Source: Escherichia phage Eps7 | Reading direction: 5' to 3' (one strand) | DNA: 64,000 bases | Sequence record: NC_010583.1 | Part shown: piece after piece, positions 6,281 to 24,204 of the stretch | Layout of the letters: each line of letters starts with the position of its first letter | How positions within the stretch are numbered: the first letter of the stretch is position 1 | The notes under the pieces: generated by a model | The model's input: the letters and a program-made list of their open reading frames with translations, nothing else | Told to the model about the DNA's origin: nothing | The model's database searches: none | Position numbers and translations under genes: made by a program

Positions 6281-6603
6281 TCTAAACCCTGGAAATATCG
6301 AGGGAATGGAGAGCCAACTTCAAAATTGATGCCCCAATTAAGTTCAACGAGTTCAGATTTATTAAGATCTAGGCCATTACCTTCAAAGATATAGCCGTAA
6401 ACCGCAGGGAACATAGCTGCTAGATCTTCCATATCGGAATGAGCATTGTGTTCTTCACGGAACTGCTCAACTCTTCAATAGAACTTTTCTAGGAGACTCA
6501 GGTACGATGAACGTTACCACATCAGTAGAATCATCGGTACGATACACCGTAGCTTGGAACAAGCCAACACCTAAAAGGTTTATTGCCGGAGTAGTAAAAA
6601 TAT
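6281..6603 (-). CDS. hypothetical protein (about 107 aa, apparent +1 frameshift near 6470)
   Basis: Two sub-threshold ORFs (MDIFTTPAINLLG... and ...EQFREEHNAHSDMEDLAAMFPAVYGYIFEGNGLDL...) in adjacent frames. Confidence 0.3.
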
Positions 6604-7441: not shown

Positions 7442-8134
7442 TTATTTGTTAACGCGTACAAAGTATCCTTTATAGGCTCCCATAATAGAGTTACCTAAGA
7501 ATACTAGCCACATTGCTAGGATTGCATAAGATGCACCTGTAGATTGAGCAGTTACAAGCCAAATGTACACAGTACCAATGTTAATAGCAATCCAAATCAG
7601 CCATTGTTCAGCATATTGTTTGACCATAAGCCACATAGCAATCACACTACCTACCGCAGTAAATGCATCCAACATTGGGAATGGATCAGCCGTAGTAGCA
7701 AGGAAACTACCATAACCTAACGTGGCTACTGCTAAAATCCCTAGAGTCAGCAAAGCTTGAGCTTTTGTCAGAACTTTAGTTGGAACATCCGGCAGATTAC
7801 TTGGCTTATTTTTATGCCATAAGTACATTCCATAAAACTGCATAGGAACGTAGTATAGCAGGTTTAGTGCAGCGTTACCATAAAGATCTGCGTTTAAAGC
7901 TGTAATACCATATGTAAGAACACCCACTAAGCCCCAAATATAGTTGGAAACACGTCCTTTTGCAACCAGAATAACACAAACCACATTGGTTATTGCAGTA
8001 GCCCAATCTAGAGCTGTACCATTATAGTTTGCTAAACTAATAAAGGCGACTGCTATAAACAGCCACAGATATTCCAGAGGTTTCCAGTTTTTAAAGTCAT
8101 TTACGAGATAGTTAGTCATATTAAAACTCTCCAA
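7442..8134 (-). CDS. pnuC: nicotinamide riboside transporter PnuC-like membrane protein
   Basis: 230-aa polytopic membrane protein; GMYLWHK and VKQYAEQWLIWIAINI match PnuC signatures GWYAW and RKYVENWLLWVIINV. Confidence 0.65.
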   Translation of the reverse strand: MESFNMTNYLVNDFKNWKPLEYLWLFIAVAFISLANYNGTALDWATAITNVVCVILVAKGRVSNYIWGLVGVLTYGITALNADLYGNAALNLLYYVPMQFYGMYLWHKNKPSNLPDVPTKVLTKAQALLTLGILAVATLGYGSFLATTADPFPMLDAFTAVGSVIAMWLMVKQYAEQWLIWIAINIGTVYIWLVTAQSTGASYAILAMWLVFLGNSIMGAYKGYFVRVNK

Positions 8135-9176
8135 AGATAAAGTGATGAATCAGCCAGTCTACTGCGTTTACTGCTTCGTCCATACGAACTTTGTAGTCCG
8201 GAGAGTCGATGTAAACAGTACGCCCTTCAGGGAACTGATTTGGAAATTCTTTCTTCATCTGCTCGAACAGTTCAGAAGTAATTGAACGATCGGAGTTAAT
8301 ACGTAAACCATCATCTACCCACTTGACAGTAGGCGCTAGAACAATTACTAAATCGTAATGTTCTTCTTTTGCAATTGCTGTAACCACAGGGTTCTTACTA
8401 TGTTCATAAAGTCTGTGGTAGAACTCAGTAATAAAAGCATTTGTATCCACAAACATGATCTTATTTGCAGTACGTTTTGCTTCAAACTCTAGCTCTTTGT
8501 GTCTGAACGCAATTTTACTATAGTCTTCGCTGGTAAGCAGATTTTCGTTACCAACTAGATCAACTTCACAATACGTTCGGCCATATTCTTTTACCCACGA
8601 AGTGTTGTATAGCTTCGCAAGGTATTTTGTTAAAGTAGTCTTTCCTGAGCTTTCAGTCCCAATGATTACAACCTTACGCACGTAATCTTTACGAACTACG
8701 CTAGGAAGAAACTCCCAATACTTCATAAGATCATTACGAATCATTGTAGCTGAGATTGGAACACGAGTCCGATCAGAATCTACAATATAATGACCAAACT
8801 TCGGCAGATATTTCTTATATTCTGCATCATAGTCTAGTTCGCTAGAGAAAATGGTGATCTCAGGCAAATGTCCGTAATTTTCATTAAGGATTCTAGCATA
8901 TTCCGGCCAACCATTCGGATATTCAGGAATATCATCTTCAATAATGTACTCTACCGAAATGTGCTCAATATCCGCGTAAGTTTGTTCTAACCAACGAAGT
9001 CGATTCTTTAACTGTAATACTTCCTGATCACGTGTGTTCTGCTTATCCAGCCAACGATTATCATGACTAACTACAACAATAACTCGTTCACACATAGTTG
9101 CTGCTGTGTTTATTAGGTTAATATGACCACGCGTTAATGGCGCGAACTTACCAATTACTAGACCAGTCTTAATCAT
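8121..9176 (-). CDS. nadR: NadR-like bifunctional NMN adenylyltransferase / ribosylnicotinamide kinase
   Basis: N-terminal nucleotidyltransferase motif GKFAPLTRGH (HxGH), C-terminal P-loop GTESSGKTT; true start MIKTGL (track MREESN prefix is leader). Confidence 0.65.
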   Translation of the reverse strand: MIKTGLVIGKFAPLTRGHINLINTAATMCERVIVVVSHDNRWLDKQNTRDQEVLQLKNRLRWLEQTYADIEHISVEYIIEDDIPEYPNGWPEYARILNENYGHLPEITIFSSELDYDAEYKKYLPKFGHYIVDSDRTRVPISATMIRNDLMKYWEFLPSVVRKDYVRKVVIIGTESSGKTTLTKYLAKLYNTSWVKEYGRTYCEVDLVGNENLLTSEDYSKIAFRHKELEFEAKRTANKIMFVDTNAFITEFYHRLYEHSKNPVVTAIAKEEHYDLVIVLAPTVKWVDDGLRINSDRSITSELFEQMKKEFPNQFPEGRTVYIDSPDYKVRMDEAVNAVDWLIHHFIFGEF

Positions 9177-9202
9177 ATTTGATTCCTCTCTCAAATTTAT
9201 AA

Positions 9203-9250
9203 ATATATTATACAGAGAATTTAGCGTTCAAGCAATCGAATTTTTAAACT
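9203..9250 (-). promoter_or_regulatory. T5-type early promoter cassette (drives nadR-pnuC)
   Basis: RC: -35 ATTGCT, -10 TATAAT, conserved leader with GAGAGAGGAATCAA RBS. Confidence 0.55.
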
Positions 9251-9384
9251 TTTTAGTGGAAAAATCTCAAGGCATTTAGTGGTAGCACGTTGTTGCTACA
9301 ATAATAGTATATGTATTACTAAAGTAAATAAAGAATTAAATACTAAAGACCTTAGTTGAATAACTTATGGGCTTTTCTTTTGCC

Positions 9385-9428
9385 TTAAATACAGAAAAGC
9401 CCGCGCTCTCGGAGGAAACGCGGGCTTG
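9385..9428 (-). terminator. intrinsic terminator (possibly bidirectional)
   Basis: GC-rich hairpin aagcccgcg...cgcgggctt with flanking T/A runs. Confidence 0.5.
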
Positions 9429-9546
9429 GTTCGAAGATTACGTGTAACTATTACTTGTTACGCATATCCATGATCATTTGACCATCGTAGCCAGTACCAA
9501 CAACAGTCTGCGGTACACCACCTTGTATTTTTCAGCACGAAGCATT

Positions 9547-10395
9547 TCAAACTTCCAGCTGCTTCCAACGAATCATTTCAGGAGTAATGGTACGTTGCAG
9601 CGCGGCGTTAGCTTCAGCTTCTTTCTTAGCTGCGTACAGTTTAGCATCTGCGTCACGTTCGTTAGCTACTGCCATGTTTTCACGAGCAGAACGATCAGCT
9701 TCAGCTTGCTTAACTTTCTGCTGTGCTTCTTGTTCAACACGAGCCAATTCAGCTTTAGCGGCGTTAACTTGTTCTTCACGAACTTTTGTGTTTTGTACCT
9801 GTTCCATGATTACAGGTGGCAGAGTAATATCCTGAAGGAATACTTGCTTAACCGTGTAACCATAAGGACGCGCGTACTCTTCTACTTCTTGCTGAATAGC
9901 AGTTTGCAGTTGAGCCTGAATCTTAGCGTCGAACAGATCTTGTGCTTTTGGTACAGACTTACCAAACTCACGAATCGTAGATAGCATCTTCTCTTCAACG
10001 TACTTGTTCAGAGCTTGATCCTGAGTACCTGCGTTAACACGGTTCATAGGAGCTTTAGCACCATCAAACTGCAACATAACGGTAATGTCAACAGTGGACT
10101 TAAACTTATCCTGGCTAGGAACCTGAAGTTTATCCAGTTTCATGGAAATATCTTTCGTACTAAAAGTATCAAAAGAAGCAAATGGGTTAACAATATGGAA
10201 GCCTGGCAATACAGGATTAGGGCTAACTTTACCCAGGAAGGTTTGGGTCTTAACAGTACCATCCTGAACAACTGTGTAGGAATTGAGAGCCAGAATAAGA
10301 GCGCCAAGACCAACTACAGCACCAACACCCCAACGTTTGATAGTGCGAATTACTTTTTGCTCAGAAGTCAGTTCTTTAGTGTTTTTAGTAAACAT
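9547..10395 (-). CDS. SPFH/band-7 (stomatin/prohibitin/HflC-like) domain protein; C-terminus probably extends to about 9451
   Basis: N-terminal TM segment, SPFH-like core, Ala/Glu/Gln-rich coiled-coil tail; two in-frame stops within 30 nt flanking an open alternative frame. Confidence 0.6.
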   Translation of the reverse strand: MFTKNTKELTSEQKVIRTIKRWGVGAVVGLGALILALNSYTVVQDGTVKTQTFLGKVSPNPVLPGFHIVNPFASFDTFSTKDISMKLDKLQVPSQDKFKSTVDITVMLQFDGAKAPMNRVNAGTQDQALNKYVEEKMLSTIREFGKSVPKAQDLFDAKIQAQLQTAIQQEVEEYARPYGYTVKQVFLQDITLPPVIMEQVQNTKVREEQVNAAKAELARVEQEAQQKVKQAEADRSARENMAVANERDADAKLYAAKKEAEANAALQRTITPEMIRWKQLEV

Positions 10396-10406
10396 ATATT
10401 TCCTTA

Positions 10407-10607
10407 TTATTTAGAAGAGTTAGCTACTACAGTTACTTTAGTTGCAGAAATAAACAGGCTAGCATCCACAGCAAATTCAGGAGCTTTGATATCTCCATTA
10501 TGAAATATGACTATACCGGAGACTACTTCAAATGCTAGTGCTGTAACATCGGTGGTATTTACTTGTGAATGTTCACCTACTACTTTTACTATATATCGTG
10601 TTTTCAC
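10407..10607 (-). CDS. NfeD-like short OB-fold protein (66 aa), partner of SPFH protein
   Basis: Beta-rich 66-aa protein (YIVKVVGEHSQV...) immediately upstream of and co-oriented with the SPFH gene. Confidence 0.4.
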   Translation of the reverse strand: MKTRYIVKVVGEHSQVNTTDVTALAFEVVSGIVIFHNGDIKAPEFAVDASLFISATKVTVVANSSK

Positions 10608-10633
10608 TTTATTTTCCTAGCAGTTAATAAAAT

Positions 10634-10709
10634 TGGCCGAGGTGACAGGATTCGAACCTGCATAAAGGAATTTAGAAGACTCCTGCCTATCCCTTAGACT
10701 ACACCCCGT
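10634..10709 (-). tRNA. tRNA-Arg (anticodon UCU; tentative)
   Basis: T-arm acagg/attcgaa/cctgc, acceptor cgaggtg/caccccg, anticodon arm ggaat-ttagaag-actcc. Confidence 0.6.
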
Positions 10710-11791
10710 TTAGGTATTTTTAAGAACTCTTATAAAAGCTCTTAAAGATACCCGACGGTAGGTAGGGTCAGCCCCCTCAGATTAAGCTCTGCAGCCCTTC
10801 CGTCAGACAATATCTTCCAGTTTAAGTCAGGGTGACTTTGTGGTTATGTTCTCCGTATGTGAAGAACTCGGTTAGGCTTAGGTCATGACTCCCAGCCTAC
10901 TGCTGCCACTCAACAGGAATTATCGCGAATTACCTGTACTATTGGGCACCATTAGTGACATCTCTCATGTCAGCGTTTCCCACTCTCATATTCACGCGGT
11001 CTGTTAGAATCGCACCTCCGATTTTCGATGCGAAGCTGGATGCCTAGTCTCAGGTTAAACGGGGCACACACTAGGCAGTGATCCCGAGTTCCGAGTTTGG
11101 TTGAGGCCGTCAGGTTTCCTCGTGGTTTAGCTGTTTCGATTCTAACCTAATACTGATCAGGTGGCGTACCTCCTGAACCGTCATAGTATGTACTCCAGCA
11201 GCGAATGCTTATCCGGTATAAGCCCGAGTTATCCGATTCTTTCCAGAAGGAGCAGTAAAGCTCAATGTCAGCCTGTGAGCATCTGGCAGTGTTATCACAT
11301 AAGTCAGTTCGACACCCCACATTTTAGTGCCTGGTAGATCCCGAATGAAGCCCTCAGTCGTTAGACCTCCATCATTCATCAAAGATTTACGCTACCCACT
11401 ATTCGATGGACAATCGCCGCATTGTGGTATACATACGTTTTCACTTGCATCCTAGACGGGTCAGCGTTGAAAGTTATATGGGTTTCTCAAGCCCAACCTT
11501 CAGTCTTCTACCCCTGGGACACGCACCGTATTTCACACTGTGCCTAGCTCCTGTTGAGACCCATCGTTTTGTATAAATTAGAGAAGAGTTTAGAGGAGAG
11601 GTTTCAGACGCCTCATTTTACAAGAAGTCTCGAACCTATATTCGTTACTCTAGTCACTTGGCCGGATATACCGGACTGGACTCGGAACTCTAACAGGTGA
11701 TCATTCTTAACCCACCGACTCTATTCAGTGTCAGAAGCTATCACTAGGTGAATCGCTAAAGCTCACTCAGCGTAATCGGCTCGCTGTTCTC
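10710..11791 (-). ncRNA. candidate large structured non-coding RNA (about 1.05 kb), co-transcribed with tRNA-Arg
   Basis: No ORF of 60 aa or more in any frame over about 1.1 kb; stops dense in all frames; GC visibly higher than flanking genes; conserved promoter cassette at 5' end, tRNA at 3' end. Confidence 0.3.
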
Positions 11792-11838
11792 TAATTTATG
11801 AATCTATTATACAGAATTTTGGAACGTTTAGCAAATCA
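11792..11838 (-). promoter_or_regulatory. T5-type early promoter cassette driving the ORF-free region and tRNA-Arg
   Basis: RC: -35 TTTGCT, -10 TATAAT, conserved leader start; no ATG or RBS follows. Confidence 0.5.
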
Positions 11839-11842
11839 ATTT

Positions 11843-12286
11843 TTAATTAAATTCGCCAGCAACCTGAGCAGCAATGCCACCATCGTAACGACCAGGAAAC
11901 TCTTCCTTAATCGCTTTCATCAGCATACCCTTTGTAATCCCAGGATTCAACTTAACTAATTCTGCAAAGTATTTGCGAATCTCAGAATCAGATAACTGAG
12001 GCGGCAGATACTGTTGTAGCCATTTGTTCAGTATATATTCATACTGAGCAGACTGCAAGCTATAATTATCAAGGTCTTGACCGTGAAGTTTAGCTTTTGT
12101 CTGATTAATGCTTTTCAGTTGAGCTTTTAGATAAGATACAAACTGTTCAGAAGTAATGAAGTCTTTATCAACACGCTGAAGATCTCCGATTATAGTCTGG
12201 TAGCTTTTAGCTACTTCTTTATCAGAACCATCAACCTTAGATTCCTGCAAAGCCCTACGCAAAACATCTAGAATATTCTCTTCCAT
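11843..12286 (-). CDS. GatB/YqeY domain protein
   Basis: 147-aa protein with YqeY-like C-terminal motif NPGITKGMLMKAIKEEFPGRYDGG. Confidence 0.55.
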   Translation of the reverse strand: MEENILDVLRRALQESKVDGSDKEVAKSYQTIIGDLQRVDKDFITSEQFVSYLKAQLKSINQTKAKLHGQDLDNYSLQSAQYEYILNKWLQQYLPPQLSDSEIRKYFAELVKLNPGITKGMLMKAIKEEFPGRYDGGIAAQVAGEFN

Positions 12287-12290
12287 TATT

Positions 12291-12461
12291 TAATTCCCAG
12301 TGCTTGGTTAAAAGATTGTTCTGTCATAACTGCCGAGACTTTAGCGAAATCAAACTTCTTAGGGTTTGTAGTAATTTCAGCAACGTTAGTAGTTTTAACT
12401 GTTTTCGTAGTACGGATACCACGAGTATTAACACCAATAATTACAACTGATTTCATATTTC
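12291..12461 (-). CDS. hypothetical small protein (56 aa)
   Basis: ATG ORF MKSVVIIGVNTRG... immediately after the leader of cassette 12475-12520; manual translation. Confidence 0.4.
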
Positions 12462-12474
12462 GCTTCCTCTCATT

Positions 12475-12520
12475 AATTTATGAAAGTATTATACAGAAAT
12501 TTAAGGCTTTAAGCAATCGA
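12475..12520 (-). promoter_or_regulatory. T5-type early promoter cassette
   Basis: RC: -35 ATTGCT, -10 TATAAT, leader ...AATTAATGAGAGGAAG. Confidence 0.5.
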
Positions 12521-18682: not shown

Positions 18683-19537
18683 TTACACCGTAAATGGATA
18701 TGCAATAGCAGGATGGTGTTCATAGCCACGAACAGTAAAATCATCCTTACTTACCCACGTTAATACATCATCCAAAGTTCTAATATTTGGATTGATTTCT
18801 AAAGTAGGAGGTGCAAAAGGTTCACGATCGAATTGCTTGTGCTCCATCAGAACATTATACTGATCTTCATAGATATGAAGATTAATAATCTTTTGACGAG
18901 CAATACCTGGCTTAAGACCTGTAATCTGTGCCATAATAGCTAGAAGTGCATAGCATTGCACCATATTAAATACTTGGCCCAGCAAGAAATCATTAGACCT
19001 CTGGAAAGAGTTTAGGTATAGTGTATCACCTAAAATAGAGAATTGATGGGTATGCATACACGGACGTAGGCATCCTTTACGAAATTCCCCACGGGTTCCA
19101 AAAGTTAAAATTTCTCCACGATCGTCAATCCCTCTTTTCAAATTATGATAGACTTTGGCTAACTGATCAAATACCATACCATCAGAATTAGTCCAATGAC
19201 GTCCTTGAACACCATAGACTCGTCCCATATCATCCTCGCCTTTACGGAATGGATTACCTAGCCAGGCAATATTTTCATTTGCATTAGCATTCCATGTATT
19301 AACACCAATAGCGCGGAATTGTGCTGCTGAGTCGTACCCACGGAGATATCCGATCATTTCCATTATTGCTTGTTTAGCAAATGCTTTACGAGTAGTTACT
19401 AGCGGCAGTTCTCCTGCTCCTACGTTAAAGGTAAAGTCTGCATCAATAATGGTTAGGCAACGAACCCCTGTTCTAGGATTCGTTACCCATACACCCTCTT
19501 CAAGAATACGTTTTCCAGTTTCAATATATTGCTTCAT
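18683..19537 (-). CDS. thyA: thymidylate synthase
   Basis: Conserved ThyA blocks: PLVTTRK, active-site region [11 protein letters not shown] (PCH), [14 protein letters not shown] and YALLAIMAQ. Confidence 0.8.
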
Positions 19538-21811: not shown

Positions 21812-24204
21812 TTATAATTGACAACCACCAGATGCGCATCCAGCAGCAGCTTCCTCTCCTGCACCTCCACCATTTTCAGTGTTGAAGTTTGCATAATAAA
21901 AGGTTTTCCAACCGTACTTAACAGCAGTCATAAAGTCACGAACTACTACTGGGCCGGGAATGATTTCATTCTCGAACTTGGTGTAGTCATAGTACATATT
22001 CGTACTGATAGACTGGCTGAAGAATTTCTGCATGGTTGCTACCCATTTGATCCACTCGATACGATCTACATCATAAGCCAGTTTATAGCTCATTAATGTA
22101 TCCCAATCAGTTGCACCTGGAGCAATTGCAATTACTTTATTAACTGCACTACCCTTGATAGATACGATCTTACGGGGCGGTTCGATAGAGTTAGTAACAC
22201 CTAGCAGTACAGAGGAACTTTCACCTGGCATCTGAGCAGTCAGAACAGAGTTGCGCATACCATATTTCAGAATATCTGCACGCAGAGATTCCCAATCCAT
22301 TTCTAGACCTACAGTTACCAGTTCATCAACAGTTTTCTTGTACGTGTCGATTACCAGAGTTCCTTGCGAAGGCTTAGTACGATTAAACCAGTCACATGCA
22401 CCTTGTTCTTTAGCCAGACGTACAGAGGCTTTATGTAGGAAGTAGGACAGCTTTTCAGCTTCACGGTGAATCCAGTTACGTGCTTCAACACCTTCGTAAG
22501 CCAAACCTTCTGCTGCCATTGCACCTGCTGCGTTCATCAGACCAATACCAACGTTACGACGTTTCTTAGCCGTGTACTTCCATAGTTGGGAATGGGTAAT
22601 CCTGAATCTCGATGATTGTATCAACGAATTTCAGAAGGATGTAGCAAGTTTTCTCCCATTCAGCCAGAGATTCCATGCGGCCTAGTACAACACCACCTAA
22701 GTTACACAGAGATACTTCACCAATATCTTCTGGACGCATATCGTCTAACTGATCTTGGGTTTTATACAGTTCCGTAACGTGATGGAATGGACGGGTGGCT
22801 GAGTAATTCAACACAAAAGGGTTGGTCATACGAATCGGGTCAAGGAAGTTACCATGACGGTTAGATTCACCAATGTGATGAGCATACATACGCCCTGTTT
22901 CCATACGGATACGTAACCAAGTATCTAGGATTTCTTTTGCAGAGATTCTAGGAGCTGCTGGAATTGTTTTTCCTTCGTGGTCGATCTTTGTAAGAGAAGC
23001 CACACGTTTCTCCGCTGCCACGTAGATTTCTTCAAACTTAGCCTCATCTTCACCATAAAACGCTTCATGAACTTCTGGTGCGTAGAAGTAGGACATTAGC
23101 GTAATATCTTCGTTTTTCAGGTAACGTTTTAACAGAAGGTTGTTAAAGCTCAGAGAATAATCCATCTTATCGATTTTATTCTCGTCTGTAGCACGTTGCT
23201 GCTTAACCTGCATCAACTGAATGATTTCAGGATCGAAGTATGGATAAGACACAGTAGCAGAACCGCCACGGGTTTGCTGAGTGTTAGCTTTTACTGATCG
23301 GTCAATGTGTCGATAATATGGCAGTTTTCCGGAATGCGGGAATGCCCCATTTCGCACCGGATCAGCAATTGATCGGCTTTCAAGATGATACCCGATTCCC
23401 GCTCTGGCTGCGACCATTTTGAAGACGATGTGCTCGGCTGTGTCGATTGAATCCAGCGTGTCAGTGGAATCCACGAGACAGCAACTAGCAAATCCACGGT
23501 CACTAGAGCGCAGGCCAACCAGTGGCGGCGTAGGAACGTTGATTTTGTGGAGCGACATTGCATTGTAGAGGTCGATTGCATCTAGGATTGTCCAGTTAGG
23601 TTGAGATAACATCGCCATTGCCATACCCATGTAGGCAAACTGCGGGGTTTCATAAATTTCACCAGTTGCAATATTACGACGAGAATACTTGTCGAAGAAC
23701 TGTTTCAGTCCACCACTGGTGAATAAACGATCGCGATCATGATCAATAACTTGGTTCAGAGCGTCAAACTGATCATCGCTAATCCATGCACTCATGTCTT
23801 CCCAGCGCCAACACGAACCATATGATCGTGGAAGAAACGCAGAGAAGGGGTTCAAAGGAATCATATAGGCGTTTACGCATCTGCGCAAGACGTAATTCCT
23901 TTGCTACAGTATCATATGCTGGGTTGTCTTTGATAAGACCTTCAGCGGCTTTAATTAACACATCTTGGAGGGTATCGGAATCTACAACACCTTTTGGTAG
24001 ATTTTTCTGGGCAGACATAACGACGGCAGACCAACTTACGTCAGTTGCTTTACATGCCCATGCAGCCCAATCATTGAGTTTTTCAGGAGCAAAGTCCTGA
24101 ACAGTACCGTCACGTTTAATTACTTTTTCAATACTATGGCTCATTGGGGTTTCCTTTTTGTAGTTATCAGGATTTAGGAAATATTCTACTTTGTTTTGGG
24201 TCAT
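21812..24204 (-). CDS. nrdA: ribonucleotide reductase class Ia alpha subunit (three apparent frameshifts)
   Basis: ATP-cone N-terminus, catalytic core ...VIDHDRD..., ...RRNVGIGLMNAAG..., C-terminal CxxxGGC tail; fragments join at G4 tract 23847-23850 (restores FEPP), at 23799-23800 and near 22575-22581. Confidence 0.75.

What the first reader, a model, noticed from the sequence alone, without database searches (positions are those of the whole stretch)
9451..10607. SPFH/band-7 protein with upstream NfeD-like OB-fold partner, and an odd C-terminus
A 66-aa beta-rich protein sits immediately upstream of a 282-aa SPFH (stomatin/HflC-like) membrane protein, recalling bacterial NfeD-SPFH operons that scaffold membrane microdomains and proteases. 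In a phage this could modulate host membrane proteases or inner-membrane organisation early in infection. The SPFH reading frame hits two in-frame stops within 30 nt (about 9520-9550) while an alternative frame is open between them, and an extended C-terminus (...KIQGGVPQTVVGTGYDGQMIMDMRNK) follows. This fits two compensating homopolymer errors (extra T near 9549-9551, missing T near 9528-9532), or a real recoding site.
Basis: partly seen in the sequence, partly recalled or inferred. Interest (0 to 1): 0.5.

Follow-up and report, generated by a model that had tools for sequence, protein, structure and literature searches.

The report
Phage SPFH gene broken by sequencing errors
This is the ordinary, already-annotated SPFH/band-7 membrane-protein gene of T5-like phages, and its "odd C-terminus" comes from two one-base sequence errors of a kind found throughout this window, not from recoding; the small upstream gene shows no sign of being an NfeD partner.

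Summary
On the minus strand a 66-aa ORF (10607..10407) precedes a 282-aa Band_7/SPFH ORF (10395..9547). Two in-frame TGA stops follow (9549-9547 and 9534-9532). Another frame is open between them, and the original frame then reads ...GGVPQTVVGTGYDGQMIMDMRNK* to 9451.

The window is a T5-like phage (Epseptimavirus). Its relatives carry an uninterrupted 945-nt, 314-aa gene. The window differs by one extra T (GTT to GTTT, 9549-9551) and one missing C (TACCAA to TACAA, between 9525 and 9524). None of 428 related records has these indels.

Similar private indels, mostly homopolymer-length changes, break about ten other conserved genes in the window. These include the endolysin (with a stop between the paired indels), the NrdA catalytic motif, thymidylate synthase, ligase B, and tail proteins pb4, pb1 and pb2. 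The indels are strongly clustered, and most clusters sum to zero. A viable phage cannot carry all of these breaks, so they are sequence errors.

Recoding is rejected. The NfeD idea is not supported: the small protein has no profile hit and no transmembrane segment, it occurs in only part of the clade, and it is absent next to SPFH orthologues in other phages. Interest is low.

The parts
10634..10708 (-). tRNA-Arg (anticodon TCT) immediately upstream of the two-gene unit
   Evidence: ARAGORN; Rfam tRNA 49.3 bits; annotated tRNA-Arg in relatives
10407..10607 (-). 66-aa ORF (GTG start), phrog_11609, unknown function. Not shown to be NfeD-like.
   Evidence: ORF list; PHROG hit 2.5e-48 with no function; no Pfam, NCBIfam, PADLOC or PDB hit; AF2 model unusable at pLDDT 41.6; present in only 193 phage records, all >=90% identical
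9547..10395 (-). SPFH/Band_7 ORF as it stands in the window (282 aa, ends at a TGA created by the extra T)
   Evidence: ORF list; Pfam Band_7 E=1.9e-19; identical over its full length to the first 282 aa of relatives' 314-aa protein
9451..10395 (-). Full extent of the SPFH gene (945 nt, 314 aa once the two indels are corrected)
   Evidence: Relatives annotate a 945-nt CDS; the DNA alignment shows only the two indels in the 3' part
9549..9551 (-). TTT run holding one extra T (relatives have GTT GAA); creates the first in-frame stop, TGA 9549-9547
   Evidence: Alignment A1; blastn indel list
9532..9534 (-). Second in-frame TGA, which exists only because of the shifted frame
   Evidence: Sequence and three-frame translation
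9524..9527 (-). Site of the missing C (relatives TAC CAA or TAT CAA; window TACAA); returns the reading to the original frame
   Evidence: Alignment A1; also seen against NG_S8 and faergetype
9451..9523 (-). Coding sequence of the conserved C-terminal tail (G)GVPQTVVGTGYDGQMIMDMRNK plus stop; in the alignment it differs from close relatives only at a site that varies among the relatives themselves
   Evidence: the tail is conserved in Tequintavirus, Slopekvirus and Tulanevirus homologues and in the NG_S8 deletion remnant
9397..9427 (-). Intrinsic-terminator-like hairpin plus T-run 24 nt after the full-length stop codon
   Evidence: Terminator scan, 12-bp stem with 7 GC pairs

Best explanation
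The locus is the SPFH/band-7 gene found in T5-like phages. It encodes a 314-aa protein with one N-terminal membrane anchor, preceded by a small clade-specific gene of unknown function and a tRNA-Arg.

The apparent double stop and extended C-terminus are an artefact of the sequence record. One base was over-called in a T run (GTT to GTTT) and one under-called in a C run (TACC to TAC) 25 nt downstream. Correcting both restores the reading ...WKQLEVEMLRAEKYQGGVPQTVVGTGYDGQMIMDMRNK found in the relatives examined.

By analogy with solved SPFH assemblies (an inference, not tested here), the protein probably inserts N-in with its SPFH domain and coiled-coil on the periplasmic side, and oligomerises into a membrane-attached ring or cage. 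The conserved C-terminal tail would be part of that assembly. Its target in the infected cell is unknown.
For: Shown:
- Four close relatives have an intact 945-nt CDS, and the window differs in the 3' end only by +T and -C.
- Across 428 related phage records the best identity over 9400-9700 is 99.3%, which equals the two gaps. No record shares the indels.
- The window carries about two dozen further private frame-breaking indels in conserved ORFs, mostly homopolymer-length changes.
- Some of these are the same paired, net-zero type. The endolysin pair (12795/12818, A5 to A6 and T4 to T3) has a stop between the two indels. The thymidylate synthase pair is at 19092/19100. In NrdA, changes at 22797-22818 turn the NLCVEI active-site motif into NPFVLN.
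- The single indels in tail protein pb4 (57469) and ligase B (37672) are absent from all 230 and 433 related records respectively.
- The indels cluster: 8 neighbouring pairs lie within 35 nt of each other, against 0.32 expected; none of 20,000 randomisations reached 8.
- The C-terminal tail is conserved down to 62% overall identity in T4-like Aeromonas and Klebsiella phages and in the NG_S8 in-frame deletion remnant.
- SPFH identity rests on Pfam Band_7 at 70.8 bits, phrog_200 at E=4e-85, and the closest solved relatives QmcA (8z5g) and prohibitins. The protein has one hydrophobic segment at about residues 22-42 and a K/R-rich N-terminus.
Against: No reads or quality values are available, so the errors are inferred from comparison rather than observed. 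Neither the sequencing platform nor the reason most clusters sum to zero could be established. The window is not in the phage collection searched (best matches about 98%), so no second copy of the same isolate could be compared. The cage-forming mechanism and the topology are inferred from family knowledge only.
Confidence: 0.9

Rival explanations
1. The two indels are real mutations in this isolate. The SPFH gene is truncated at residue 282 by the extra T, losing the conserved 32-residue tail, and the downstream deletion is a second, silent lesion in a now-untranslated region.
For: The gene is dispensable in nature. Phage NG_S8 carries an in-frame internal deletion that leaves only 55 codons.
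Against: The 3' segment after the stop shows no decay beyond the two indels. An exactly compensating second indel 25 nt away has no selective reason, because two stops lie between them. The same signature hits essential genes (endolysin, NrdA active site, pb4, pb2, ligase B) in the same window, and those changes cannot all be real in a plaque-forming phage.
Confidence: 0.07
2. Programmed recoding: ribosomes shift +1 at GUU_UGA and then -1 near UAC_AAG to make the full-length protein from the sequence as written.
For: The first site superficially resembles the RF2-type 'codon + UGA' +1 shift context. The frames line up so that two shifts would rebuild the conserved protein.
Against: The arrangement is not conserved: 0 of 428 relatives has it, and those examined, like the annotated ones in the hit tables, encode the protein in one frame. 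From the sequence and general frameshifting rules (my inference), a tRNA-Val moving from GUU to UUU loses first-position pairing, and there is no slippery heptamer for the required -1 shift at UAC. Equivalent paired indels occur in other genes of the window where recoding is not credible.
Confidence: 0.01
3. The 66-aa upstream protein is a minimal NfeD-like OB-fold partner of the SPFH protein.
For: It sits directly upstream in the same orientation, 11 nt from the SPFH start. Its sequence looks beta-rich, and the low-confidence model contains only strands.
Against: There is no hit to Pfam NfeD or any other family at E<=1, none in NCBIfam, and none in PDB sequences at E<=10. It has no transmembrane segment (max 19-residue hydropathy 1.39), whereas bacterial NfeD proteins are membrane-anchored (family knowledge). 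It occurs in only 193 records, all >=90% identical, against 722 with SPFH. It is absent upstream of SPFH in HildyBeyeler (34 nt between the tRNA and the gene), Miro and phiAS4, whose neighbours are not NfeD either. It is kept in NG_S8, which has lost SPFH.
Confidence: 0.05

Closest known systems
SPFH/band-7 proteins of T5-like phages (Epseptimavirus and Tequintavirus), e.g. phagemcphageface_90 (QIN99182.1) and faergetype_97; PHROG phrog_200
   Same: Over its 282 translated residues the window ORF is identical to the 314-aa protein of phagemcphageface. It has the same position after tRNA-Arg and before the NadR-like and PnuC-like genes, and the same 945-nt span.
   Different: Only the two private single-base indels near the 3' end. 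The 'lipoprotein' label that pharokka/RefSeq annotations carry for this PHROG is not backed by the sequence, which has no cysteine at all.
SPFH ORFs of T4-like phages (Klebsiella phage Miro gp225; Aeromonas phage phiAS4 ORF0183; 44RR, Aeh1 and RB43 ORFs noted as 'SPFH domain/Band 7' in Virol J 2006;3:30, PMC1524935)
   Same: 76% and 62% identity (Miro and phiAS4) across the whole protein, including the C-terminal GGVPQTV..G..D.R.K tail. Miro also has an NMN-adenylyltransferase gene next door.
   Different: Different N-terminal segment before the anchor; no homologue of the 66-aa ORF upstream.
Bacterial and mitochondrial SPFH cage formers: E. coli QmcA (PDB 8z5g, 26 chains in the entry) and prohibitin-1/2 complexes (8rrh and others); HflK/C by family knowledge
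   Same: Band_7 domain followed by a long Ala/Glu/Lys/Gln-rich helical region; a single N-terminal anchor; detectable sequence similarity (E=4e-5 to 1e-3).
   Different: Very distant: phmmer scores of only 21-27 bits and no NCBIfam equivalog. No associated protease or NfeD gene was found. Oligomeric state and partners are untested.
Bacterial NfeD-SPFH operons (e.g. ybbJ-qmcA, yqiJ-yqiK, yuaF-floT; recalled from family knowledge)
   Same: A small gene adjacent to, and co-oriented with, an SPFH gene.
   Different: The small protein here has no NfeD profile match and no membrane anchor, and its distribution is not coupled to SPFH.

Membership tests
SPFH / Band_7 (Pfam PF01145) | Profile match above the curated gathering score | tested here: met
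   70.8 bits against a cut-off of 23.6, E=1.9e-19, residues 50-224 covering profile positions 12-176 of 176
SPFH / Band_7 (Pfam PF01145) | Membrane anchor N-terminal to the SPFH domain | tested here: met
   Single hydrophobic stretch at about residues 22-42 (mean Kyte-Doolittle 1.81 over 19 residues), preceded by a segment with 6 K/R and 2 D/E. This is hydropathy only, not a dedicated predictor.
SPFH / Band_7 (Pfam PF01145) | C-terminal helical (coiled-coil) region and tail used for ring or cage oligomerisation | tested here: inconclusive
   Residues ~205-270 align to the helical regions of QmcA and prohibitin-2, and the tail is conserved among phage homologues. No structure was predicted and oligomerisation cannot be tested here.
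NfeD (Pfam PF01957) partner of SPFH proteins | Profile match to the NfeD C-terminal OB-fold domain | tested here: not met
   No Pfam family at E<=1, none in NCBIfam, and no PDB sequence at E<=10 with a 3-sequence profile
NfeD (Pfam PF01957) partner of SPFH proteins | OB-fold three-dimensional structure | tested here: inconclusive
   AlphaFold2 on a 3-sequence alignment gave mean pLDDT 41.6 and pTM 0.24, too poor for a fold search. Only two homologous clusters exist to deepen the alignment.
NfeD (Pfam PF01957) partner of SPFH proteins | Membrane anchoring by N-terminal transmembrane helices (family knowledge) | tested here: not met
   66 aa in total; maximum 19-residue hydropathy 1.39, with no transmembrane-length hydrophobic segment
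NfeD (Pfam PF01957) partner of SPFH proteins | Conserved gene neighbourhood with the SPFH gene across lineages | tested here: not met
   193 records against 722; absent in HildyBeyeler, Miro and phiAS4; present in NG_S8, which lacks SPFH
Programmed ribosomal frameshift / recoding site | Frame interruption conserved among homologues | tested here: not met
   0 of 428 related records carries the indels; the relatives aligned or annotated have a contiguous ORF
Programmed ribosomal frameshift / recoding site | Recognisable shift-prone sequence at each of the two required shifts | tested here: not met
   Read from the sequence. GUU_UGA would need tRNA-Val to re-pair on UUU. There is no X_XXY_YYZ heptamer at AAA_UAC_AAG for the -1 return. 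This judgement rests on general frameshifting rules.
Bacterial lipoprotein (the label carried by phrog_200 and RefSeq annotations) | Lipobox with an invariant cysteine after the signal peptide | tested here: not met
   The protein contains no cysteine, and the Miro and phiAS4 homologues show none in the N-terminal region

The most novel reading that the evidence does not exclude
The phage SPFH protein may be functionally tied to the neighbouring NAD-salvage module, for example by scaffolding or protecting the PnuC-type transporter in the inner membrane. The basis is that an SPFH gene sits beside an NMN-adenylyltransferase gene both in T5-like phages (NadR-like plus PnuC) and in the T4-like Klebsiella phage Miro (NMNAT-Nudix). 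The Miro SPFH protein is about 80% identical to the T5-like one, although the enzymes have different architectures. Nothing here excludes this, but simple co-transfer of a cassette explains it equally well.
Probability: 0.07. Interest if true: 0.5.

Novelty: already known. Interest (0 to 1): 0.08.

Why it matters
It matters mainly as quality control. The window's sequence carries roughly one private frame-breaking indel per 2-3 kb, often in compensating pairs. Any apparent pseudogene, split gene or recoding site elsewhere in this window should therefore be checked against relatives before it is believed.

Biologically, the SPFH gene is a widespread but uncharacterised phage accessory gene. It was found in 722 phage records, including T5-like and T4-like lineages, and it is dispensable in at least one natural isolate. 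Nothing about this copy is special.

Tried and rejected
- **Structure route for the 66-aa protein.** The homologue search returned only two clusters, both T5-like and 94-96% identical. AlphaFold2 on that shallow alignment gave pLDDT 41.6, so no fold search was run.
- **Other profile searches.** A PDB sequence search with the 66-aa profile at E<=10 found nothing. PADLOC defence-system models hit neither protein. NCBIfam hit neither protein.
- **Finding the source record.** I looked for the window's own record in the phage collection to compare an independent copy. The best match over 20 kb was 97-98%, so it is not there.
- **Rfam scan of 9000-12500.** It found only the tRNA, so no RNA element explains the site.
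- **First literature search.** It failed because a term was too short. The second found only a 2006 listing of SPFH Pfam hits in T4-like phages and no functional study.
- **Filter caveat.** My filtered indel table dropped the SPFH pair against faergetype because that relative is locally more divergent. The pair is clear against phagemcphageface, SP_Thor, SmurfNell and NG_S8.

Full report
**What is in the sequence**

On the minus strand a tRNA-Arg (TCT; 10708..10634) comes first. It is followed by a 66-aa ORF with a GTG start (10607..10407). Eleven nucleotides later comes a 282-aa ORF (10395..9547).

The 282-aa frame ends ...WKQLEV-TGA (9549-9547). It reads four more codons and meets a second TGA (9534-9532). 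It then continues KIQGGVPQTVVGTGYDGQMIMDMRNK-TAA to 9451. Between the stops another frame is open and reads EMLRAEKYK. A strong terminator-like hairpin (9427..9397) follows the distal stop.

**What the window is**

Megablast places the region in T5-like phages of the genus Epseptimavirus (Demerecviridae). There are 445 matching records, the best about 98% identical. The window's own record is not in the collection.

In phagemcphageface, SP_Thor, SmurfNell and faergetype the homologous CDS is uninterrupted. It is 945 nt and 314 aa long and ends ...IRWKQLEVEMLRAEKYQGGVPQTVVGTGYDGQMIMDMRNK. The window's span from 10395 to 9451 is also 945 nt.

**The lesion**

A DNA alignment of the 3' end shows two differences between the window and its closest relatives:
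- One extra T: GAAG-TTGAA becomes GAAGTTTGAA, in the run 9549-9551.
- One missing pyrimidine 25 nt downstream: TACCAA (TATCAA in SP_Thor) becomes TACAA, between 9525 and 9524.

Across 428 related records, the best identity over window 9400-9700 is 99.3%. That figure is exactly the two gaps, so no relative carries the indels. The remnant gene of phage NG_S8 also has the undisturbed sequence.

**Is this biology or error?**

I compared the whole window with two relatives that cover it, NG_S8 (L004, L005) and faergetype (L006, L007). A blastn indel listing and tblastn of the relatives' ORFs show that the window carries about two dozen further private indels whose length is not a multiple of three. 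These sit inside conserved ORFs in otherwise 93-100% identical context, and most are homopolymer-length changes.

Genes split into different frames include:
- NrdA (22577, 23804, 23849)
- DNA ligase subunit B (37672)
- a metallopeptidase (15165, 14699)
- tail protein pb4 (57469, A5 to A6)
- the tail-fibre protein annotated in faergetype as faergetype_39, pb1 by my reading (52805, C5 to C4)
- the pore-forming tail-tip protein (pb2)

For pb4 and ligase B, I checked that none of 230 and 433 related records respectively shares the indel. The best identity was 99.5%, which equals one gap.

The paired, net-zero signature seen in the SPFH gene recurs elsewhere:
- **Endolysin.** A5 to A6 and T4 to T3, 23 nt apart, turn VTKNRVNSGTFPD into VTKKPC*LWYFPD, with a stop between the indels.
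- **Thymidylate synthase.** A -1/+1 pair 8-12 nt apart turns FWNPGEF into FGTRGEF.
- **NrdA.** Homopolymer changes that sum to zero across about 30 nt turn the active-site motif TNLCVEITQPT into TNPFVLNYSAT.

The indels are far more clustered than chance allows. Eight neighbouring pairs lie within 35 nt of each other, against 0.32 expected, and none of 20,000 randomisations reached eight. Of the six clusters listed, five sum to zero.

A phage that forms plaques cannot simultaneously lack its endolysin, pb4, pb2 and a functional NrdA active site. The parsimonious reading is that the record contains homopolymer-length miscalls, and that the SPFH "double stop" is one instance. I cannot say which platform or consensus procedure produced length-preserving pairs.

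**Why not recoding or a real truncation**

Recoding would require a +1 shift at GUU_UGA and then a -1 shift at UAC_AAG. The arrangement is not conserved in any relative. The second site has no slippery sequence. The same pattern appears in genes where recoding is not credible.

A genuine truncation cannot be formally excluded without reads, and the gene is dispensable. NG_S8 has an in-frame deletion joining codon 17 to WKQLEV..., which leaves 55 codons. However, the exact compensation has no selective rationale when two stops lie between the indels, and the 3' coding sequence shows no other decay.

The tail itself is under selection. GGVPQTV(V/M)G..Y.G..(I/L).D.R.K is conserved in Tequintavirus (92% overall identity), Slopekvirus Miro (76%) and Tulanevirus phiAS4 (62%).

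**What the proteins are**

The large protein is an SPFH protein:
- Pfam Band_7 scores 70.8 bits against a cut-off of 23.6.
- phrog_200 matches at E=4e-85.
- The nearest solved relatives are E. coli QmcA (8z5g) and prohibitins 1 and 2, at E=4e-5 to 1e-3.
- There is no NCBIfam or PADLOC match.

It has one hydrophobic segment at about residues 22-42 after a K/R-rich N-terminus, and no cysteine. The "lipoprotein" label attached to this PHROG is therefore not supported for it.

From family knowledge I infer an N-in anchored protein whose SPFH and helical regions oligomerise into a ring or cage at the membrane, as QmcA, HflK/C and prohibitins do. This was not tested here. SPFH ORFs in phages have been noted since at least 2006 (PMC1524935), and I found no functional study.

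**The NfeD idea**

The evidence on the 66-aa protein is as follows:
- It matches only phrog_11609, which has no assigned function.
- It has no Pfam hit at E<=1, no NCBIfam hit, and no PDB sequence hit at E<=10.
- It has no transmembrane-length hydrophobic segment.
- Only two homologous clusters exist in 5.8 billion proteins.
- The resulting AlphaFold model is unusable at pLDDT 41.6, so an OB fold can be neither affirmed nor excluded.

Distribution argues against a dedicated partnership. The small gene is in 193 phage records, all at least 90% identical, whereas the SPFH gene is in 722. In the Tequintavirus HildyBeyeler the SPFH gene starts 34 nt after the tRNA-Arg, with nothing in between. In Miro and phiAS4 the upstream genes are a DUF5856 protein and an unrelated 87-aa ORF. 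NG_S8 keeps the small gene although SPFH is deleted.

**Verdict**

- The SPFH assignment is confirmed, and the gene is already annotated in many related phage genomes.
- The odd C-terminus is a sequence artefact (confidence about 0.9).
- Recoding is rejected.
- The NfeD partner is not supported.

Interest is low. The useful outcome is the warning that this window is peppered with private, often paired, frame-breaking indels.

Noticed in passing
window 12795/12818 (endolysin), 19092/19100 (thymidylate synthase), 22797-22818 (NrdA), 14667/14699 and 15165 (metallopeptidase), 6469-6495: Private single-base homopolymer indels come in tight clusters, and most clusters sum to zero. The endolysin cluster leaves an in-frame stop, and the NrdA cluster destroys the NLCxEI active-site motif. 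Clustering is 8 close pairs against 0.32 expected. The length-preserving character of the error process is unexplained.
   Followed up: partly
window 22577, 23804, 23849, 37672, 52805, 57469, ~62394: Isolated private +1 or -1 indels split NrdA, DNA ligase B, the tail-fibre protein (pb1), tail protein pb4 and the pore-forming tail-tip protein (pb2) into separate frames. The pb4 and ligase B indels are absent from all 230 and 433 related records. Any 'split gene' call in this window should be distrusted.
   Followed up: partly
L004 8188-8355 (phage NG_S8), equivalent to window ~9451-9573 joined to 10346-10395: NG_S8 carries a natural in-frame deletion of the SPFH gene (MFTKNTKELTSDQKVIR|WKQLEV...MRNK, 55 codons). 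It also lacks the NadR-like and PnuC-like genes. SPFH is therefore dispensable for at least one isolate.
   Followed up: partly
window 8121-9194 (NadR-like gene, minus strand) next to SPFH; L009 2508-3569 (Klebsiella phage Miro): An SPFH gene lies beside an NMN-adenylyltransferase gene in T5-like phages (NMNAT plus AAA_28 kinase, with PnuC beyond it). The same is true in the T4-like phage Miro (NMNAT plus Nudix). The Miro SPFH protein is about 80% identical to the T5-like one, although the enzymes have different architectures. This could be recurrent linkage or cassette transfer.
   Followed up: no
window 9547-10395 and homologues (phrog_200): RefSeq/pharokka annotations call this protein 'lipoprotein', but it has no cysteine and therefore no lipobox. 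The label looks like an annotation carry-over.
   Followed up: partly
window ~10709-11800 (between tRNA-Arg and the YqeY-like gene): A stretch of about 1 kb with no convincing ORF is highly indel-rich compared with relatives. One relative annotates a 'tRNA-OTHER' here. ARAGORN and Rfam at gathering threshold find nothing beyond the tRNA-Arg.
   Followed up: partly
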